Sequence record: MN850574.1
Strand: one strand, 5' to 3'
DNA: 64,000 bases
Source of the DNA: Escherichia phage kaaroe
The position numbers were made by a program, and so were the translations under genes. How positions within the stretch are numbered: position 1 is the stretch's first letter; each line of letters starts with the position of its first letter. The notes under the pieces are model-generated. The model had not been told where the DNA came from. It did not search any database and was given only the letters and a program-made list of their open reading frames with translations. Of the stretch, positions 15,978-58,383 are shown piece after piece.

Positions 15978-16277
15978 ATGAATTTTACCGATAAAGTTTT
16001 TGAAATTAGTCGCACTACTTCAATTAAAAATCTTAGGGCGGCTGCATTTATGGTTGATAAAGGGTTTAATATGGCATCGTCTGACGGTGTACCGTACTTT
16101 GCACCAACTTTCGTTGGCTGGATGACTGATCGTAAACGTGATTACACTAAAGCATATCCGCATATGGTACTTAGTAAAATTATCACTAAAGTGTATCCAC
16201 ATATGGTACTTAATGACGTTATCACGGACCACGATCACTTTACAAACTTTATTGTTTCCGGTGAATGGCGAAAATAA
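15978..16277 (+). CDS. hypothetical protein with internal direct repeat
   Basis: AYPHMVLSKIITKVYPHMVLNDVIT repeat; ATG 15978. Confidence 0.45.
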   Translation: MNFTDKVFEISRTTSIKNLRAAAFMVDKGFNMASSDGVPYFAPTFVGWMTDRKRDYTKAYPHMVLSKIITKVYPHMVLNDVITDHDHFTNFIVSGEWRK

Positions 16278-16288
16278 TTTAAAACTAG

Positions 16289-16317
16289 TTGACACCGGAT
16301 TAAGGGAGTAGTAACAT
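16289..16317 (+). promoter_or_regulatory. sigma70-type early promoter with dyad over -10
   Basis: TTGACA-17-TAACAT, GGGAGTA/TACTCCC dyad, ATG 16352. Confidence 0.55.
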
Positions 16318-16351
16318 ACTCCCATCAAGACAAAACACTGAGGAATATATT

Positions 16352-17110
16352 ATGAAAAACATTATCGCTGCTATCGTTCTTTCTGCTACTGCTTTCGGTG
16401 CTAACGCTGCGTCCTTTGATTGCGCTAAAGCTACTACCAAATCAGAGAAGTTTATTTGTGCTAATGAGTCTATCTCCGCACTGGACTCTAAACTTCATGA
16501 GGTGTATGTTAAGGCTGTTAAGATTGATCCGTCTCTGAAACAAGAGCAACGAAACTGGAATAAAACTGTTCGTGATACAATGATCAATATAGGGCAGATT
16601 CAGCCACTGGAGGCTGTATATAACGCTCAAATCCAAAACTTGATGAATGTATTACCTAAAGAAGAAACCGCGTCAGAAAGCGATTCAGAGACTTCTGCGA
16701 AGGTTGAAGAAGAACAACCGAAACAGGAAGCAAAAGTGGTAGAAGAACCGAAGGTCGAAACTTTTACCTATCAATGTACCGTTCGTTATGAGTGGAGTAT
16801 GAAAGATGGAATTTCCACAAAAATTAAAGAGGCTCCACTGTATGCAAAATATGGAAACCAGCCAGGGGATCTTAAAGTAACCATTAAAAATGGGAAGATG
16901 GTTGATTTTGTATACACTGATGAATACAACGTACACAAAGCAAACGTACAAGAAACCGTTATGACTAAAGGCGGGTTTTATAAGAATGTTGGCAAGAAAG
17001 ATCTATATGAATACTCCGTTTTCGAACCAAACGACGGAACTATTCGATTTGAAAAACGTCATCCTACATTCGGTGGAGCAATTGATGTAGATCAATACGT
17101 TTGCAAGTAA
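16352..17110 (+). CDS. secreted protein with LprI/DUF1311-like N-terminal domain
   Basis: Signal peptide MKNIIAAIVLSATAFGANA; FDCAKA..FICANE..LD..L..VY...Q..W...RD pattern. Confidence 0.6.
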   Translation: MKNIIAAIVLSATAFGANAASFDCAKATTKSEKFICANESISALDSKLHEVYVKAVKIDPSLKQEQRNWNKTVRDTMINIGQIQPLEAVYNAQIQNLMNVLPKEETASESDSETSAKVEEEQPKQEAKVVEEPKVETFTYQCTVRYEWSMKDGISTKIKEAPLYAKYGNQPGDLKVTIKNGKMVDFVYTDEYNVHKANVQETVMTKGGFYKNVGKKDLYEYSVFEPNDGTIRFEKRHPTFGGAIDVDQYVCK

Positions 17111-36300: not shown

Positions 36301-36570
36301 ATGAAAGTCGGTATTATTCAATTATGGACGGCTACCAGTGAAAACTACGCAGTAGCCGTAGATTATTACGGTTTACAATATCTCTATGATGAAGCGAGCG
36401 CATCATGGCTTCCTGTGCAAGAAAATAGCGATATATCAAGACCTGCTACTATATTCGACCGTGGCGTTGTCTTTATCGATATTGACGAGACAGTAGCAAA
36501 ACTGCGTAAGAAAGCAATCAATAAGAAAAAGGTGATGTGGGATGAAAGAATATTTGAAACTATTGCGTGA
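36301..36570 (+). CDS. hypothetical protein
   Basis: ATG 36301; 3' end overlaps td start. Confidence 0.4.
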   Translation: MKVGIIQLWTATSENYAVAVDYYGLQYLYDEASASWLPVQENSDISRPATIFDRGVVFIDIDETVAKLRKKAINKKKVMWDERIFETIA

Positions 36571-37774
36571 TGTTCTTGATAATGGATGGCCTCGTGAAGA
36601 CCGAACTGGGGTAGGTACGCTATCTAAATTCGGCGCAGAGATGCGAATTGATTTAAGCAAGGGTTTCCCATTACTGACCACTAAAAAGATGGCTACAGCC
36701 TCTGTAATTGGCGAATTGCTATGGTTTATGGAGGGATCACTTGACCGCCGTCGCTTACAGGAAATTACACGCGGTAAGTTTGACGAAGAAGCCTTCGACA
36801 TTTGGCGCGGCAACTGTCTTGATATGAAAGAAAAGAATCCTTTGCGATTCAATGGTTATAATGTCGGCAATATGTATGGTATGGCATGGCGACGCAAACC
36901 GATTCATCCACACGGTGAAATCAAAATTAAGCGCGTTAAGAGCAAATATGCACATACATTTAAGCACCCGTGGGTAGAAGACTTTACGCCAACCAATGAA
37001 ACAGAAGACCGTTTATGTGCTATCTGGCGTGGTATGCGTTATGAAGAGTTTGATTCTGAATATAATCAATTCTTAGTAGCAGACCACTGGAAGACTCAAT
37101 CTAATTTTGTTAATGATGCATATTGCTTGTGGGGATTCCAGGAATGGGTAGATGATGGTTATTTCGGTTATCTGCTTGATAGTGATTATCTGGGCGGGGA
37201 TATTTTAGCGCCAGATACCACGATCTTTGCTAGTATGGACGTAGACACATCGAGCACTAAAGACGATGAAGAATATGTCTATCGACCGAAGATTTGGGAA
37301 GACCAGTTACAAAACGTGATTGAACAAATTAAAAACAATCCAACGGATCGACGTATCATCATTGACTCATGGAACGTACAAGGAACACATAATGCTGTAT
37401 TAGGTGTATGTCATCCTTTCGTGCAATTCTACGTCAATGAAGGTAAACTGTCTTGTATGTGGTTTCAGCGAAGCGTAGACAGCTTTTTAGGCTTGCCCTT
37501 TAACGTCGCCAGCTATGCGCTGTTAACTCACATCATAGCGAAAATGTGTGATCTTGAGGTAGGAGAACTGATTTTCTCTGGTGGAGATACTCACATTTAC
37601 AAAAACCATTTTGATCAAGTTATGGAACAGTTAAGCCGTGTTCCGTTTGATAAACCAACGATTGAGTTGCCGGAATTTAAATCTTTAGATGAGGTATTGA
37701 CAAAGACTCCGAAAGACTTTAAAATTCACAACTATCAAAGCCATCCAGCAATCACCGCTCAAATGGCAGTATAA
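36542..37774 (+). CDS. td: thymidylate synthase with ~105-aa in-frame insertion, no intron
   Basis: DRTGVGT, LLTTKK, DRRIIIDSWN, CHPFVQFYV, QRSVDSFLGLPFNVASYALL, SGGDTHIYKNH conserved; 410 aa versus 286 in T4. Confidence 0.93.
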   Translation: MKEYLKLLRDVLDNGWPREDRTGVGTLSKFGAEMRIDLSKGFPLLTTKKMATASVIGELLWFMEGSLDRRRLQEITRGKFDEEAFDIWRGNCLDMKEKNPLRFNGYNVGNMYGMAWRRKPIHPHGEIKIKRVKSKYAHTFKHPWVEDFTPTNETEDRLCAIWRGMRYEEFDSEYNQFLVADHWKTQSNFVNDAYCLWGFQEWVDDGYFGYLLDSDYLGGDILAPDTTIFASMDVDTSSTKDDEEYVYRPKIWEDQLQNVIEQIKNNPTDRRIIIDSWNVQGTHNAVLGVCHPFVQFYVNEGKLSCMWFQRSVDSFLGLPFNVASYALLTHIIAKMCDLEVGELIFSGGDTHIYKNHFDQVMEQLSRVPFDKPTIELPEFKSLDEVLTKTPKDFKIHNYQSHPAITAQMAV

Positions 37775-37842: not shown

Positions 37843-40086
37843 ATGATTAAAAATGTTGTTAAGTCTTCCGGTCTGACTGTTCCTTTTGAAAAAGAAAAAG
37901 TAATGAAAATTCTGGAAGCGGCAGCCGAAGGTCATAACGTTGATCCATATGAATTGTTTGATATGGTTGAACCACTTCTGACAGAAGGTATGTCTACCAA
38001 CGATATCCAGAAAGTATTGATTAAGGTCGCAGCAGATAACATTACTGTAGAAACACCCGATTATCAATATGTAGCAAGTAACCTTGCAATGTTCGCGCTT
38101 CGCAAATCAGTATACGGTCAATTCCAACCGATTGATTTTTACAGCCATATTGAGCGTAATATTGCAACCGGAAAATATGATCGCGAAATTCTGCAAAAGT
38201 ATTCCCGTGAAGAAGTGGAATATCTGGAGAAATTCATCGACCATAAACTTGATTTTAAAATGACCTATGCTGGTGCGATGCAGTTAAAAGAGAAATATCT
38301 TGTTCAAGATCGCAGCACTAAGAAAATCATCGAAACACCGCAATTTGCGTATATGCTGATCGGTATGTGCTTGCATCAAGAAGAGACAGAAAATCGACTT
38401 GAACATGTGATTGATTTTTATAATGCGGTTGCGAATAAGCAAATCTCTCTGCCTACTCCGATTATGGCAGGTGTGCGTACCCCAACACGCCAATTTAGTT
38501 CGTGTGTGGTGATTGAAAGTGATGACTCATTGCAGGGTATTAATGAAACCGCAAATGCAATCATCAAGTATATTAGCAAGCGTGCTGGTATCGGTATCAA
38601 CGCTGGCATGATTCGCGCGGAAGGATCTAAGATCGGGCATGGTGAAGTTCGTCATACTGGAGTTATCCCATTCTGGAAACATTTTCAGACTGCCGTTAAG
38701 TCATGCTCACAAGGCGGTATTCGTGGCGGGGCAGCGACACTCTATTACCCAATGTGGCATTTAGAGTTTGAAAGTCTGATTGTGTTAAAGAACAATAAGG
38801 GCGTGGAAGATAACCGCATTCGCCATCTTGACTACGGCGTACAGATTAATAACCTGATGGTAGAGCGATTCCTTAAACGGGATTACATTACTCTGTTTAG
38901 TCCAGATGTTGCGGGTGGCTTGTTGTGGGATCTGTACTTCCGAGACGAGGAAGGTTTCCGCCAACTTTACGAAAAACTGGAAAAAGATCCGAGTGTTCGT
39001 AAAACTCGTGTTAAAGCCGAAGACCTGTTTTTAGCGGTGGCAATTGAACGTTTTAACACTGGTCGAATCTATCCAACGTTCACAGACAACATGAACAATC
39101 ACGGGGCGTTTATTCGTAATGTAGCACCGATTAAACAATCTAACCTGTGTTGTGAAATTGCTCTGCCTACTAAACCGATGGGTCGTGATGATTCAGAGAT
39201 CAGCCTATGTACTTTGGCAGCATATGTTTTAGGAAACTTTGATATCGAAAATATGGAAGAAGTAGAACGCATTGCTATGGTTATGGTGCGTGCACTTGAC
39301 AACCTGTTAGATTATCAGGATTATCCTGTAGAGCAAGCTATGACAGCCAAAAAACGTCGCTCTCTGGGTGTTGGGGTGACTAACTTTGCATCGTATCTCG
39401 CGGATAATTTCTTCACATATGAAGACGCTAACGAGTTTACGCATAAAACGTTTGAACGCTTGCAATATGCTCTGATTAAGGCTAGTGTGCAACTGGCTAA
39501 AGAGAAGGGTGCTTGCGAACTGATGCACGAAACCCGCTATGGTCGCGGTGAACTGCCTATCGACTGGTACAAAAAGACAGTAGATGAACTGGTTGATCCG
39601 GTGTATGAGATGGATTGGGAAGAACTGCGCGAAGACCTGAAAAAATATGGCATTCGTAATAGTACGCTTTCGGCTCTGATGCCTTGTGAGTCGTCTTCTC
39701 AGGTATCTAACAGCACAAACGGTATTGAACCACCTCGCGGGATTGTATCGGTTAAAGGATCGAAAGAAGGGCAATTTAATCAGGTTATTCCGAACGTAGA
39801 GAATAATGCTGATGTTATTGACCTGCTTTGGACACTGATCAAGAAAGGTAACAAGCCCTATCTGACACTGGCAGCGATCATGCAGAAGTTTGTAGATCAG
39901 GCGATTAGTTCCAATACATCCTATGATCCAAGCACTTATAAGACTGGTAAAGTCGATATTGCTGATGTGTTAGATGATATGTTGTTCGCTCAACATTACG
40001 GTCTGAAAACCCTGTATTATGCGAACGTTCGCGACGGTGCAGATGGTACGGAAGACGCTAGCGAGTGCTCATCTTGCAAGCTGTAA
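37843..40086 (+). CDS. nrdA: ribonucleotide reductase large subunit (class Ia NrdA)
   Basis: ATP-cone N-terminus, SSCVVIE-like, ESSSQVSNSTNGIEP and other NrdA motifs; 747 aa. Confidence 0.95.
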   Translation: MIKNVVKSSGLTVPFEKEKVMKILEAAAEGHNVDPYELFDMVEPLLTEGMSTNDIQKVLIKVAADNITVETPDYQYVASNLAMFALRKSVYGQFQPIDFYSHIERNIATGKYDREILQKYSREEVEYLEKFIDHKLDFKMTYAGAMQLKEKYLVQDRSTKKIIETPQFAYMLIGMCLHQEETENRLEHVIDFYNAVANKQISLPTPIMAGVRTPTRQFSSCVVIESDDSLQGINETANAIIKYISKRAGIGINAGMIRAEGSKIGHGEVRHTGVIPFWKHFQTAVKSCSQGGIRGGAATLYYPMWHLEFESLIVLKNNKGVEDNRIRHLDYGVQINNLMVERFLKRDYITLFSPDVAGGLLWDLYFRDEEGFRQLYEKLEKDPSVRKTRVKAEDLFLAVAIERFNTGRIYPTFTDNMNNHGAFIRNVAPIKQSNLCCEIALPTKPMGRDDSEISLCTLAAYVLGNFDIENMEEVERIAMVMVRALDNLLDYQDYPVEQAMTAKKRRSLGVGVTNFASYLADNFFTYEDANEFTHKTFERLQYALIKASVQLAKEKGACELMHETRYGRGELPIDWYKKTVDELVDPVYEMDWEELREDLKKYGIRNSTLSALMPCESSSQVSNSTNGIEPPRGIVSVKGSKEGQFNQVIPNVENNADVIDLLWTLIKKGNKPYLTLAAIMQKFVDQAISSNTSYDPSTYKTGKVDIADVLDDMLFAQHYGLKTLYYANVRDGADGTEDASECSSCKL

Positions 40087-40094
40087 AATAAGTG

Positions 40095-40123
40095 TTGACG
40101 CGGGGAGAAATCCCCGCTATAAT
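40095..40123 (+). promoter_or_regulatory. sigma70-type early promoter with palindromic spacer
   Basis: TTGACG-17-TATAAT; spacer is CGGGGAGAAATCCCCG. Confidence 0.6.
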
Positions 40124-40154
40124 ACAACCATCAAAAACAAGTGAGGATTTTATT

Positions 40155-40323
40155 ATGACCAAATTAAAATGTGTTGCTGTAGATTTTTGAACTAGCTGAT
40201 AGCTTTGTTGTTGGTGATGAATATGATGCTCAACATGATGGGACTTGCTACTACGTCGAGGATGAATATGGTGTAGAATGGGCGATTCTTCCTGATGATA
40301 AATGTTTTGAGGTTGTCGGATAA
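40155..40323 (+). CDS. small ORF interrupted by +1 frame change at TTT-TGA (programmed frameshift or homopolymer error)
   Basis: MTKLKCVAVDF stops at UGA after UUU; +1 frame continues ELADSFVVGDEYDAQHDGTCYYVEDEYGVEWAILPDDKCFEVVG with no start codon of its own. Confidence 0.4.
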
Positions 40324-40496
40324 TGGCTACTGTATGGTTATTGATTGCAATCAGCAATTCAATGTATAATTACGGAAATATGTCAAGCATTGAATTTGCA
40401 ACAAAGCAGGATTGCGTTAAAGCTCGCGAGATTATCCGCGAAGACAATAAACGCTTTATGAATCTATATTGCGTTGAAAAACAAAAGGTGAACTAA
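40323..40496 (+). CDS. small hydrophobic-N-terminus protein (57 aa), tandem paralog A
   Basis: MATVWLLIAISNS...; start overlaps upstream stop (TAATG). Confidence 0.5.
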   Translation: MATVWLLIAISNSMYNYGNMSSIEFATKQDCVKAREIIREDNKRFMNLYCVEKQKVN

Positions 40497-40663
40497 TGGC
40501 TACATTATGGTTATTGCTTTCCGTTAGCGTAGGCTCATATAATAAAGGAACTGTTACCAGCGTGGAGTTTTCATCACATCAAAGCTGTTTTGAAGCCGTG
40601 CAGGAATTGCAACAGGATAACGAAATAAACAGAAATACTAAGTTCTTTTGTGTTAAAAAGTGA
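40496..40663 (+). CDS. small hydrophobic-N-terminus protein (55 aa), tandem paralog B
   Basis: MATLWLLLSVSVG..., same length and conserved Cys spacing as paralog A; TAATG overlap. Confidence 0.5.
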   Translation: MATLWLLLSVSVGSYNKGTVTSVEFSSHQSCFEAVQELQQDNEINRNTKFFCVKK

Positions 40664-40678
40664 TAGTGAGGTGAATTA

Positions 40679-41839
40679 ATGAGCGTATTTAACCGCGAAC
40701 ATGTTGATATTATGAACGAACCAATGTTTCTGGGTAGTGGGTTGGGTATCGCTCGCTATGATATTCAGCGTCATCAAGTATTTGAAGAACTGATCGAAAA
40801 GCAATTGTCATTTTTCTGGCGTCCAGAAGAAATTTCACTTGCAACCGACCGCATTCAATATCTTAATATGGGTGACGTTGAAAAGCGTTTCTTTACTGAA
40901 AACTTGAAGTATCAGACATTACTTGATTCTATTCAAGGTCGCGCACCGTCCGCAGCATTTGGTCCAATTGTATCTGATCCAACTCTCGATACATGGTTGC
41001 AAACATGGACATTCAGCGAAACGATTCATAGCCGAAGCTATACACACATTATGCGTAACTGTTTCATTGATCCGGCTAGTGAGTTCGACCAGATCATCGA
41101 TAACCCTGCTATCATGAAGCGAGCGGAATCTATCGGGAAATATTATGATGATGTTCTTTATTGGATTCGTAAGTATGAGAATGCAAAAGAAGATCTCCGC
41201 TATTGGGAAGAACGAGACGACCAGACAGCATTAGATGATGCAAGAAGATTTTTTGAAGATACAAAACGAGATCTGATGGCTTCGATTTATCTGTGTGCAC
41301 ACTGCGTCAATGCACTGGAAGCAATTCGTTTTTATGTGTCCTTTGCATGTACTTTCAGCTTTGCCGAACGTGGTTTACTGGAAGGTAACGCGAAGATCAT
41401 GAAATTTATTGCGCGTGATGAACAACTTCACTTAAAAGGCACACAATACATTATTCGTCAATGGCAAACGGGGGTTGATGGTGATGAGTGGAAACAGATT
41501 GCGGAAGAACTTGAAGGCGAAGCAACGAAAATCTTTCTGGATGTTGTCGAGCAAGAAAAAGAATGGGTAGACCACCTATTCGCAATGGGGGCAATTCCTA
41601 ACCTGTCACCGGAAATTCTGAAAACCTATGTAGAATACCTGGCAGATTCCCGTATGCGTGCTGCCGGACTGAAAAGCCCGTTTAGTGTTCGTCGTCATCC
41701 GTTACCGTGGATGCGTAAATGGTTGAACTCTGACGAAGTACAGAATGCAGCGCAGGAAGTAGAGATTATGTATCTGGTATCTCAGGTTAATACCGATTTA
41801 ACAGATGACGACTACAACCGATTCGGGAAATATCTATGA
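40679..41839 (+). CDS. nrdB: ribonucleotide reductase small subunit (NrdB)
   Basis: Diiron/tyrosyl radical motifs (FSETIHSRSYTHI, FACTFSFAERG, ARDEQLH); 386 aa, uninterrupted. Confidence 0.95.
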   Translation: MSVFNREHVDIMNEPMFLGSGLGIARYDIQRHQVFEELIEKQLSFFWRPEEISLATDRIQYLNMGDVEKRFFTENLKYQTLLDSIQGRAPSAAFGPIVSDPTLDTWLQTWTFSETIHSRSYTHIMRNCFIDPASEFDQIIDNPAIMKRAESIGKYYDDVLYWIRKYENAKEDLRYWEERDDQTALDDARRFFEDTKRDLMASIYLCAHCVNALEAIRFYVSFACTFSFAERGLLEGNAKIMKFIARDEQLHLKGTQYIIRQWQTGVDGDEWKQIAEELEGEATKIFLDVVEQEKEWVDHLFAMGAIPNLSPEILKTYVEYLADSRMRAAGLKSPFSVRRHPLPWMRKWLNSDEVQNAAQEVEIMYLVSQVNTDLTDDDYNRFGKYL

Positions 41840-50989: not shown

Positions 50990-51002
50990 TTCAAAAAGTT
51001 GT

Positions 51003-51031
51003 TGACAGGGGATCGGTGATCCCCTATACTA
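51003..51031 (+). promoter_or_regulatory. early promoter cassette with palindromic spacer
   Basis: TTGACA-GGGGATCGGTGATCCCC-TATACT, conserved leader, ATG 51076. Confidence 0.65.
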
Positions 51032-51395: not shown

Positions 51396-51424
51396 TTGAC
51401 AGGGGATCACCGATCCCCTATACT
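51396..51424 (+). promoter_or_regulatory. early promoter cassette with palindromic spacer
   Basis: TTGACA-GGGGATCACCGATCCCC-TATACT, ATG 51459. Confidence 0.65.
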
Positions 51425-52521: not shown

Positions 52522-52550
52522 TTGACAGGGGATCGGTGATCCCCTATAAT
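52522..52550 (+). promoter_or_regulatory. early promoter cassette with palindromic spacer
   Basis: TTGACA-GGGGATCGGTGATCCCC-TATAAT, ATG 52583. Confidence 0.65.
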
Positions 52551-55800: not shown

Positions 55801-55829
55801 TTGACGGGGATCGGGAGATCCCCTATAAT
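55801..55829 (+). promoter_or_regulatory. early promoter cassette with palindromic spacer
   Basis: TTGACG-GGGATCGGGAGATCCCC-TATAAT, ATG 55863. Confidence 0.65.
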
Positions 55830-56044: not shown

Positions 56045-56073
56045 TTGACAGGGGAGGATAACTCCCCTACAAT
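56045..56073 (+). promoter_or_regulatory. early promoter cassette with palindromic spacer (operon 56114-58346)
   Basis: TTGACA-GGGGAGGATAACTCCCC-TACAAT, ATG 56114; no further promoter until 58355. Confidence 0.65.
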
Positions 56074-58354: not shown

Positions 58355-58383
58355 TTGACAGGGGATCATCGATCCCCTATAAT
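58355..58383 (+). promoter_or_regulatory. early promoter cassette with palindromic spacer
   Basis: TTGACA-GGGGATCATCGATCCCC-TATAAT, ATG 58418. Confidence 0.65.

What the first reader, a model, noticed from the sequence alone, without database searches (positions are those of the whole stretch)
40155..40663. nrdA-nrdB intergenic cluster: small ORF needing a +1 shift at UUU-UGA plus two tandem paralogous hydrophobic-N-terminus peptides
The ORF MTKLKCVAVDF stops at UGA directly after UUU, within a run of five T. The +1 frame continues for 44 codons without any start codon and ends TAATG-coupled to the next gene. This is either a prfB-like programmed +1 frameshift (the P-site tRNA-Phe can re-pair on the overlapping UUU) or a homopolymer-length error or pseudogene. 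It is followed by two coupled paralogs (MATVWLLIAISNS..., MATLWLLLSVSVG...) of 57 and 55 aa with signal-peptide-like N-termini and two conserved Cys. In T4 this interval holds different content (the nrdB intron lies in this neighbourhood).
Basis: seen in the sequence. Interest (0 to 1): 0.55.

Follow-up and report, generated by a model that had tools for sequence, protein, structure and literature searches.

The report
Frameshift-broken small phage early gene
One extra T has broken a small, otherwise conserved early gene of an RB49-like coliphage; it is one of at least eight independent natural knock-outs of that gene, not a programmed ribosomal frameshift.

Summary
ATG 40155 opens an 11-codon ORF that stops at TGA 40188-40190, inside a T5 run. 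The +1 frame stays open for 44 codons and ends TAATG-coupled to two tandem paralogs. The window is a Krischvirus (RB49-like T4-type phage).

The two pieces are the homologue of one annotated 55-aa gene, RB49p233. That gene is intact, with a T4 run, in 55 of 58 GenBank records and in all four metagenome/IMG-VR loci. Only the window, FL04 and FL38 carry T5.

The gene carries at least eight independent inactivating lesions across genomes and metagenomes: seven different indels and one TGC>TGA nonsense. Intact alleles are under strong purifying selection (pN/pS 0.07). The neighbouring same-sized genes are never disrupted.

The window is otherwise free of internal frameshifts over about 41 kb of coding sequence. 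FL04 and FL38 are Illumina assemblies, and T5 sits in three mosaic genomes. It is therefore a real natural null or hypomorphic allele. It is neither an assembly error nor a conserved recoding signal: there is no SD-like stimulator, the stop context is UGA-A, and the site is not conserved.

Low-level incidental +1 slippage at UUU_UGA would rebuild the exact wild-type protein and cannot be excluded. The finding is ordinary. The recurrent loss is a mildly interesting side result.

The parts
40095..40123 (+). Early sigma-70-type promoter with a G/C stem-loop in its spacer (PeSL type): TTGACG, then CGGGGAGAAATCCCCGC (17 nt), then TATAAT. It lies just after the nrdA stop and heads the three-gene cassette.
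   Evidence: 11/12 consensus match with a 17-nt spacer. 6-bp perfect stem. Invariant in 7 relatives. Fits the PeSL description in PMC2839356 section 14.
40143..40147 (+). Shine-Dalgarno GAGGA, 7 nt before ATG 40155
   Evidence: Read directly from the sequence
40155..40190 (+). 5' fragment of the RB49p233 homologue: 11 codons (MTKLKCVAVDF) plus a premature TGA created by the extra T
   Evidence: alignment to RB49
40184..40188 (+). T5 run, which is T4 in intact alleles. This is the frameshift lesion. It also forms a potential shifty-stop +1 site, U_UUU_UGA.
40189..40323 (+). 3' fragment of the RB49p233 homologue in the +1 frame: 44 codons plus TAA. It carries the window-specific R26Q change (CGA>CAA at 40232).
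   Evidence: R26 is invariant in intact alleles.
40323..40496 (+). RB49p232 homologue, 57 aa, phrog_5579, intact. It has its own GAGG 10 nt upstream of the ATG.
40496..40663 (+). RB49p231 homologue, 55 aa, phrog_5579, a paralog of the preceding gene, intact
37843..40086 (+). nrdA (upstream flank)
40679..41839 (+). nrdB (downstream flank)

Best explanation
The interval is a three-gene early cassette between nrdA and nrdB of a Krischvirus (RB49-like) phage. It is homologous to RB49p233-p232-p231 and is driven by a PeSL-type early promoter.

The first gene normally encodes a 55-aa, very acidic, single-domain SH3-like beta-barrel protein of unknown function. In this genome a genuine one-base insertion (T4 to T5) at codons 11/12 shifts the frame and creates an immediate UGA. 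The gene is therefore a natural loss-of-function allele, or at most a strongly hypomorphic one.

This gene is conditionally dispensable and is knocked out again and again in nature. T5 is simply one of those knock-outs. The two downstream paralogs stay intact and can be translated from their own ribosome-binding sites.

Shown: the lesion, its rarity, the independence of the other lesions, purifying selection on intact alleles, and the quality of the assembly.
Inferred: that little or no full-length protein is made, and that the loss is tolerated or favoured in some hosts.
For: 1. Identity. The fused product matches phrog_16302 over 55/55 positions (E=7.6e-41). It aligns base for base with RB49p233 apart from the extra T.

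2. Rarity. Of 58 GenBank Krischvirus records, 55 span 80 nt (T4), only FL04 and FL38 span 81 nt (T5), and pEJ01 spans 79 nt. The four true Krischvirus loci from IMG/VR and metagenomes all have T4.

3. One fold. AlphaFold gives a confident (pLDDT 89) five-strand barrel. Strand 1 (residues 2-6) lies before the shift and strands 2-5 after it, so the 11-aa peptide is not a product in its own right.

4. Recurrent knock-outs. There are eight independent lesions:
- +T: window, FL04, FL38
- delCT: FL20, FL37
- +T in GGT: AV108
- delA: pEJ01
- delA in GGGACT: SRR15275265
- +AT: ERZ28586303
- delT near the 3' end: SRR4051861
- TGC>TGA nonsense: ERZ10407628, GCA_019973215, SRR15057925

5. Controls. p232 is disrupted in 0 of 52 records. 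All 13 p231 protein clusters are full length, against 5 of 11 aberrant clusters for p233. Fisher p=0.011 and p=0.019 (the samples are not phylogenetically independent).

6. The gene is real. pN/pS is 0.07 among intact alleles.

7. It is not an assembly artefact.
- Over 43,373 aligned RB49-CDS bases, p233 is the only internal uncompensated frameshift in the window.
- It is also the only early truncation in FL38 and FL04.
- The FL genomes are Illumina MiSeq 2x250 assemblies (PMC12032242).
- T5 sits in three genomes that differ by dozens of SNPs on either side of a shared block.

8. No recoding signals. There is no anti-SD-complementary 4-mer anywhere between the ATG and the T run, and the stop context is UGAA. 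There is no Rfam match.

9. The window allele has a nonsynonymous change (R26Q) at a residue that is invariant in every intact allele. This is consistent with relaxed constraint, but n=1.
Against: - I cannot see the raw reads of the window itself.
- The other two T5 carriers come from one laboratory's collection.
- U_UUU_UGA is a bona fide shift-prone 'shifty stop'. tRNA-Phe can re-pair perfectly in +1, and the shifted product would be exactly the wild-type protein.
- The same heptamer, TTTTTGA, is the natural prfB shift site in 21 genomes.
- E. coli K-12, the host on which FL04 and FL38 were isolated, has a weak RF2 that favours frameshifting next to UGA (PMC3082878).
- Some protein may therefore still be made, and 'null' is not proven.
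- The allele has persisted across recombinant backgrounds. That fits neutrality, but it equally fits residual function.
Confidence: 0.85

Rival explanations
1. Programmed prfB-like +1 ribosomal frameshift. Expression of the 55-aa protein is deliberately made dependent on slippage of tRNA-Phe from UUU to the overlapping UUU when UGA is slow to decode, coupling its level to RF2 activity.
For: The slip site allows perfect +1 re-pairing next to a UGA. The trans-frame product is the full conserved protein. TTTTTGA is used as the prfB shift site in 21 genomes.
Against: - The shift requirement is absent from 55 of 58 GenBank records and from all 4 metagenomic loci.
- There is no SD-like stimulator, and A rather than C follows UGA. 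In prfB these elements are near-universal, and they are retained even in the TTTTTGA variants.
- UUU_U is much less efficient than CUU_U in E. coli (PMC5009743).
- The stop is an automatic result of inserting T before GAA.
- Seven other unrelated lesions hit the same gene, and none of them has a slip site.
Confidence: 0.03
2. Sequencing or assembly error: the true genome has four T and an intact gene.
For: The lesion is a length change in a homopolymer. The window's reads are not available.
Against: - T5 is a short run.
- The window has no other internal CDS frameshift in about 41-43 kb of coding sequence compared with RB49.
- The same allele is in two Illumina MiSeq assemblies and in three mosaically different genomes.
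- Other lesions in the gene include a substitution (nonsense) seen in three separate samples, so real inactivation of this gene is common.
Confidence: 0.05
3. Leaky 'savior indel'. T5 is a genuine mutation that lowers expression rather than abolishing it. Incidental +1 slippage at the shifty stop supplies a few percent of exact wild-type protein. That is enough for function while avoiding a cost of full expression.
For: - The shifty-stop concept, and about 2% or less for an unstimulated CCC_UGA, rising to 15% in a favourable context (PMC3082878).
- The savior-indel precedent in herpesvirus thymidine kinase (PMC5009743).
- An acidic residue at the penultimate position and the weak K-12 RF2 both favour shifting.
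- The allele persists across recombinant backgrounds.
- Among the eight lesions, only this one can be repaired exactly by a single-tRNA slip.
Against: - There is no measurement.
- UUU_U is a poor shifter in E. coli, and there is no stimulator.
- Seven other alleles, including a nonsense codon and a 2-bp deletion, show that complete loss is tolerated, so no residual function needs to be invoked.
- The R26Q change in the window hints at relaxed constraint.
Confidence: 0.1
4. Contingency (phase-variable) locus: the T run switches between 4 and 5 at high frequency to turn the gene on and off.
For: The lesion is in a homopolymer. The gene shows on/off polymorphism in nature.
Against: - A 4-5 nt run is far shorter than known contingency tracts.
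- Only one of the eight lesions is at this run, and the others are scattered.
- 55 of 58 records are fixed at T4.
Confidence: 0.02

Closest known systems
RB49p233 / RB49p232 / RB49p231 (hypothetical proteins between nrdA and nrdB of Escherichia phage RB49, NC_005066); PHROGs phrog_16302 and phrog_5579
   Same: Same position, order, TAATG couplings and promoter. 97-99% nucleotide identity.
   Different: The window's copy of p233 carries one extra T and an R26Q change. No function has been assigned to any of the three (no match in Pfam, NCBIfam, PADLOC or PDB sequences).
prfB (RF2) autoregulatory +1 frameshift site
   Same: A P-site codon that can re-pair in +1, directly followed by UGA. A rare prfB variant uses the identical TTTTTGA.
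   Different: There is no SD-like AGGGGG 3 nt upstream, A instead of C follows the stop, the site is not phylogenetically conserved, and there is no link to RF2 function.
[quoted passage not shown]
   Same: A slow stop next to a slippery codon can give percent-level +1 products. An indel can be partly compensated by ribosome slippage (PMC3082878, PMC5009743).
   Different: Nothing has been measured here. UUU_U is reported as a much weaker site than CUU_U, and no 5' stimulator is present.
PeSL (promoter-early stem-loop) ORFan cassettes of RB49/phi1-type phages (Arbiol et al. 2010, PMC2839356; Comeau et al. 2014, PMC4122927)
   Same: An upstream stop codon in A/T-rich sequence, consensus -35/-10 boxes with a polyG/polyC stem-loop between them, then an SD and small genes of unknown function. 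The locus is variable between relatives.
   Different: This particular PeSL was not named in the text I read (no mention of nrdA or nrdB). It lies between two core genes rather than in a large hyperplastic region.

Membership tests
prfB-type programmed +1 ribosomal frameshift | P-site codon whose tRNA can re-pair in the +1 frame (CUU_U, rarely UUU_U) | tested here: met
   GAU UUU UGA inside T5. UUU at 40185-87 overlaps UUU at 40186-88.
prfB-type programmed +1 ribosomal frameshift | In-frame UGA in the A site | tested here: met
   TGA at 40188-40190. It is an automatic consequence of inserting T before GAA.
prfB-type programmed +1 ribosomal frameshift | Internal Shine-Dalgarno-like stimulator about 3 nt upstream of the slip codon | tested here: not met
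   No 4-mer or longer complementary to the anti-SD anywhere in 40155-40188.
prfB-type programmed +1 ribosomal frameshift | Weak termination context (C after UGA) | tested here: not met
   The context is UGAA.
prfB-type programmed +1 ribosomal frameshift | Requirement for the shift conserved among orthologues | tested here: not met
   T5 is in 2 of 58 GenBank records plus the window. It is in 0 of 4 metagenome/IMG-VR loci.
prfB-type programmed +1 ribosomal frameshift | Measured trans-frame product | not testable with these tools
   Needs a reporter assay or mass spectrometry.
PeSL early promoter / stem-loop cassette | Sigma-70 consensus -35 and -10 boxes with proper spacing | tested here: met
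   TTGACG, 17 nt, TATAAT: 11/12.
PeSL early promoter / stem-loop cassette | Stable stem-loop with polyG/polyC tracts between or overlapping the boxes | tested here: met
   CGGGGA-GAAA-TCCCCG fills the spacer. Six more with GGGGATC-type stems are at 51002, 51396, 52522, 55801, 56045 and 58355.
PeSL early promoter / stem-loop cassette | Upstream gene's stop in A/T-rich sequence; SD and start of a small gene downstream | tested here: met
   nrdA TAA at 40084-86 followed by AATAAG; GAGGA at 40143-47; ATG at 40155.
PeSL early promoter / stem-loop cassette | Promoter and terminator activity; mini-circle formation | not testable with these tools
   Experimental properties described in PMC2839356.
phrog_16302 (RB49p233 family) | Full-length profile match | tested here: met
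   E=7.6e-41 over 1-55 of 55 for the frame-corrected protein.
phrog_5579 (RB49p232/p231 family) | Full-length profile match | tested here: met
   E=6.8e-24 and 1.2e-24. 49 distant relatives by profile search.
Sec-type signal peptide (for the two paralogs) | Positively charged n-region | tested here: not met
   No K/R in the first 12 residues of either paralog, nor in 12 of 13 distant relatives.
Sec-type signal peptide (for the two paralogs) | Hydrophobic h-region of adequate length, or a transmembrane-length segment | tested here: inconclusive
   A hydrophobic run of about 8-10 residues. The maximal 19-residue KD mean is 0.6-0.8 (family 0.6-1.4), below the usual transmembrane threshold. No SignalP or TMHMM was available.
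SH3-like small beta-barrel fold (p233) | Five-strand barrel superposable on SH3 domains | tested here: inconclusive
   Model pLDDT 89. The best PDB hits are SH3 domains, but at E=0.1 and TM 0.62. TM is 0.7-0.84 to many uncharacterised small phage proteins, including a DUF7244 protein. The Pfam DUF7244 match is below cut-off.

The most novel reading that the evidence does not exclude
RB49p233 is a conditionally harmful early protein. It could be, for example, a small acidic host-factor binder or DNA mimic that is useful on some hosts but is sensed by, or costly in the presence of, a defence system in others. Natural Krischvirus populations would therefore knock it out repeatedly: at least 8 independent lesions against pN/pS 0.07 in retained copies, with three of the lesions found in Danish pig-derived isolates. 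On this reading the T5 allele is the one lesion that works as a dimmer rather than a switch, because incidental +1 slippage at U_UUU_UGA rebuilds the exact wild-type protein at a low level (a phage 'savior indel').
Probability: 0.1. Interest if true: 0.6.

Novelty: already known. Interest (0 to 1): 0.2.

Why it matters
The flagged '+1 frameshift' should not be annotated or pursued as a recoding event. It is an ordinary frameshift allele of an annotated hypothetical gene, inside a known type of promoter-led accessory cassette.

The useful by-product is a short list of natural knock-outs of one tiny, strongly conserved early gene. A gene that is both under purifying selection and recurrently lost is a reasonable candidate for a host-specific accessory or defence-interacting function. 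Isogenic T4/T5 phages would be easy to build and compare.

Tried and rejected
- **Rfam:** scan of 39800-40900 at E<=1 found nothing.
- **Protein family and structure libraries:** Pfam, NCBIfam, PADLOC and PDB-sequence searches of all three proteins gave no significant match. The only weak hits were DUF7244, below cut-off, and chance-level copper-chaperone and FtsX hits.
- **Paralog structure:** the model has low confidence (pLDDT 67.5), and its fold search in BFVD gave nothing. No fold or function is claimed for the paralogs.
- **Deep profile search for the paralogs:** this returned two long proteins, P0027 with 10 repeats and P0049 with 5. On inspection they look like translated tandem repeats with a chance pattern match rather than homologues.
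- **Metagenome pattern scan:** 10 hits, of which only 2 were Krischvirus. The rest were chance 20-mer matches in marine contigs.
- **Look-up of the 32-aa GTG-extended ORF that gene callers produce on a T5 allele:** this found only FL38.
- **-1 slippage on the T run:** considered and rejected as productive. That frame reads UUG AAC UAG and stops after two codons (direct reading).
- **Reinitiation inside the 3' fragment:** rejected, because there is no ATG, GTG or TTG in that frame.
- **Transcriptional slippage:** judged negligible for a 5-nt run. This rests on general knowledge and was not tested.

Full report
**What is there.**
An SD (GAGGA 40143-47) and ATG 40155 open MTKLKCVAVDF. The ORF then runs GAT TTT TGA, with the stop at 40188-90 inside a run of five T (40184-88).
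- From 40189 the +1 frame is open for 44 codons (ELADS...EVVG) with no ATG, GTG or TTG. It ends at TAA 40321-23, which overlaps the ATG of a 57-aa ORF (40323-40496). That ORF is in turn TAATG-coupled to a 55-aa ORF (40496-40663).
- nrdA (37843-40086) and nrdB (40679-41839) flank the cluster.
- Immediately after the nrdA stop lies TTGACG-CGGGGAGAAATCCCCGC-TATAAT (40095-40123). This is an 11/12 sigma-70 consensus with a 17-nt spacer that is itself a G/C hairpin.

**Where the window comes from.** Megablast places it in the genus Krischvirus (RB49-like T4-type coliphages). There are 58 GenBank records at 90-99.9% identity across the interval. In RB49 the interval holds three annotated hypothetical genes: RB49p233 (55 aa), p232 (57 aa) and p231 (55 aa).

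**The 'frameshift ORF' is RB49p233 with one extra T.**
- Alignment shows the window, FL38 and FL04 with T5, and RB49, UPWr_E1, FL37 and OZ035808 with T4.
- An 81-nt query centred on the run matches 81/81 only in FL04 and FL38. It spans 80 nt in 55 records and 79 nt in pEJ01.
- Flexible-pattern scans of IMG/VR and of the metagenome collection gave four true Krischvirus loci, all T4.
- The frame-corrected protein matches phrog_16302 end to end (E=7.6e-41).
- Inserting a T into GAT TTT GAA necessarily yields GAT TTT TGA. The stop abutting the slippery codon is therefore a by-product of the mutation, not a designed feature.

**It is one protein, not two.** AlphaFold2 on the intact family gives a confident model (mean pLDDT 89). 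It is a five-strand barrel with strands at residues 2-6, 22-27, 32-35, 41-44 and 51-54. The first strand is encoded before the lesion and the rest after it. The closest solved folds are SH3 domains, although only weakly (E=0.1, TM about 0.6). In the viral structure library it superposes at TM 0.7-0.84 on many uncharacterised small phage proteins. The protein is very acidic, with 14 D+E against 3 K+R and pI about 4. No function can be assigned.

**Is it a sequencing artefact? Unlikely.**
- Over 46,490 aligned bases against RB49, of which 43,373 lie in RB49 CDSs, half of the 68 indel events are intergenic. Among the coding events, p233 is the only internal uncompensated frameshift. The others sit at gene ends, at alignment-block edges, or are compensated.
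- A per-gene census gives the same picture for the window, FL38 and FL04: p233 is the only early truncation in about 38-41 kb of CDS each.
- The FL genomes were sequenced on Illumina MiSeq 2x250 and assembled de novo (PMC12032242).
- The three T5 carriers are different, mosaic genomes. They share a near-identical block around the lesion, with one SNP at 40232 in the window. They differ from each other by dozens of SNPs just upstream (33 between the window and FL38 in 39000-40000) or downstream (10 between the window and FL04 inside p231). The allele is therefore heritable and has circulated in a recombining population.

**Is it programmed? No.** A survey of 12,751 genomes (10.1101/2024.09.24.614795) sets out the prfB motif:
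- an SD-like AGGGGG 3 nt upstream;
- CTTT as the slip sequence, with TTTTTGA in 21 genomes that still keep the SD-like element and its spacing;
- TGA as the stop;
- a following C.

Here the slip codon and UGA are present. However, there is no anti-SD-complementary 4-mer anywhere between the ATG and the T run, and the next base is A. The Atkins et al. review (PMC5009743) notes that CUU_U is by far the most efficient site in E. coli substitution experiments, with much lower levels for UUU_U. Unstimulated CCC_UGA gives at most about 2% (PMC3082878). Above all, the need for a shift is not conserved.

**The unexpected part: this gene is broken repeatedly.**
- tblastn of the intact protein against all phage records shows split or partial matches in six of them: FL04, FL38, FL20, FL37, AV108 and pEJ01.
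- The protein database holds several odd-length clusters.
- DNA alignments resolve eight independent lesions:
  1. +T in the T4 run: window, FL04, FL38
  2. delCT in TGCTAC: FL20, FL37, on the same haplotype as lesion 1
  3. +T in GGT: AV108
  4. delA in the A4 run at codons 4-5: pEJ01
  5. delA in GGGACT: Logan SRR15275265
  6. +AT: ENA ERZ28586303
  7. delT in TGTTTT near the 3' end: SRR4051861
  8. TGC>TGA nonsense at Cys31: three separate samples (ERZ10407628, GCA_019973215, SRR15057925)
- None of lesions 2-8 offers a slip site.
- Same-sized neighbours serve as controls. p232 is full length in all 52 records that have it. All 13 p231 protein clusters are 54-55 aa, against 5 of 11 aberrant clusters for p233. 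Fisher one-sided p=0.011, and p=0.019 for GenBank records. Both are rough, because the samples are not phylogenetically independent.
- Intact p233 alleles are nevertheless under strong purifying selection: pN/pS is 0.07, against 0.02 for p232 and 0.24 for p231.
- The simplest reading is a real accessory gene that is useful in some settings and dispensable or costly in others.
- The window's own copy has R26Q at a residue invariant in every intact allele. This hints at relaxed constraint, but it is a single change.

**Mechanistic consequences in this genome (inferred).** Ribosomes starting at 40155 terminate at 40188-90 after 11 codons.
- A +1 slip of peptidyl-tRNA-Phe from 40185-87 to 40186-88 would continue with GAA and rebuild the wild-type sequence exactly, apart from R26Q.
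- A -1 slip reads UUG AAC UAG and stops.
- With no stimulator, I expect at most percent-level rescue. It may be somewhat higher in K-12, whose RF2 terminates poorly, and with Asp at the penultimate position.
- Translation of p232 loses its TAATG coupling to p233, but it has GAGG 10 nt upstream of its ATG. It remains under strong constraint in the T5 carriers.

**The two paralogs.** They are true paralogs (40% identity, E=1e-16). Both belong to phrog_5579. A full-database profile search finds about 45 further small (50-65 aa) proteins with the same pattern: a short hydrophobic N-terminus (W-[IL]-L-[IL]-x-[IV]-S), then YN-x-G, then [IV]-E-F, and two invariant Cys.
- The N-terminus does not look like a classical Sec signal. 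It has no basic n-region in 14 of 15 members, a hydrophobic run of about 8-10 residues, and a 19-residue KD maximum of 0.6-1.4.
- The structure model is of low confidence and finds no fold match.
- Their function remains unknown. The two conserved Cys would fit an exported, disulfide-bonded protein, but that is untested.

**Context.**
- The promoter fits the PeSL class of Arbiol et al. (PMC2839356): a sigma-70 consensus with a polyG/polyC stem-loop between -35 and -10, followed by an SD and small ORFans. Six more such elements lie at 51-58.4 kb of the window.
- As expected for such cassettes, the locus is plastic:
  - a DNA-methyltransferase gene is inserted in Delraymugoa, Aragogtheria, KMB43 and LF73P4;
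  - a homing endonuclease follows p233 in AV108;
  - a NUMOD3 gene follows p231 in SRR15275265;
  - FL20 has a single paralog;
  - one cluster (P0025) is a p232/p231 hybrid.

**Verdict.** The programmed-frameshift interpretation is not supported, and the pseudogene or mutation alternative is. This is an ordinary natural frameshift allele of an annotated hypothetical gene in a known kind of cassette. The recurrent, independent inactivation of a strongly conserved 55-aa gene is a modestly interesting side finding that could guide a simple experiment.

Noticed in passing
window 40095-40123; also 51002-51030, 51396-51424, 52522-52550, 55801-55829, 56045-56073, 58355-58383 (all + strand): Consensus early promoters whose 17-nt spacer is a G/C-rich hairpin (for example TTGACA-GGGGATCGGTGATCCCC-TATAAT). 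These are PeSL elements as described for RB49/phi1. Many of the window-versus-RB49/FL38 indels fall inside their loops.
   Followed up: partly
nrdA-nrdB interval in relatives: Delraymugoa/Aragogtheria/KMB43/LF73P4, L009 AV108 639-966, L026 1277-1520, L010 FL20: The same interval gains or loses genes between close relatives. There is a DNA methyltransferase insertion of roughly 0.9 kb, a homing endonuclease after p233 in AV108, and a NUMOD3-type gene after p231 in a Logan contig. FL20 has only one phrog_5579 copy. There is also a 44-aa hybrid of p232 N-terminus and p231 C-terminus (P0025).
   Followed up: partly
GEC-3S allele of p233 (P0003): A 7-aa in-frame tandem duplication (DVYDARR-DEYDARH) in the loop between strands 1 and 2 gives a 62-aa variant that still folds like the family (BFVD top hit).
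   Followed up: no
L025 (FL04) 16105-16629; RB49 dsbA nt 194: FL04 has a +2 indel in dsbA relative to RB49. Its annotation shows one 525-nt CDS covering dsbA plus the gp33-like late regulator, which suggests a fusion or another frameshift allele. FL04 also has a +2 indel in p207.
   Followed up: no
window 36542-37774 (+): The thymidylate synthase gene encodes 410 aa, the same length as in RB49. That is well over 100 aa longer than typical ThyA or T4 Td (from my own knowledge), and the extra length is apparently an in-frame internal insertion. Its nature (extra domain or degenerate mobile element) was not examined.
   Followed up: no
window 57644 and 48396: A single-base insertion relative to RB49 six nt before the stop of the p188 homologue changes only the last residues and is shared with FL04. 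Another single-base insertion (AAGGAA-A-TTTT) lies in an intergenic SD region.
   Followed up: no
P0027 (775 aa) and P0049 (351 aa): Two long database proteins hit the phrog_5579-like profile in 10 and 5 tandem stretches. They look like translated tandem DNA repeats with a coincidental hydrophobic/Cys pattern rather than true relatives.
   Followed up: partly
Isolation metadata of lesion carriers: Three of the eight independent p233 lesions (T5, delCT, +T in GGT) come from Danish pig-faeces or pig-waste isolates (the FL and AV collections). Two of these lesions are on an otherwise identical local haplotype. This could reflect local selection or simply dense sampling.
   Followed up: no
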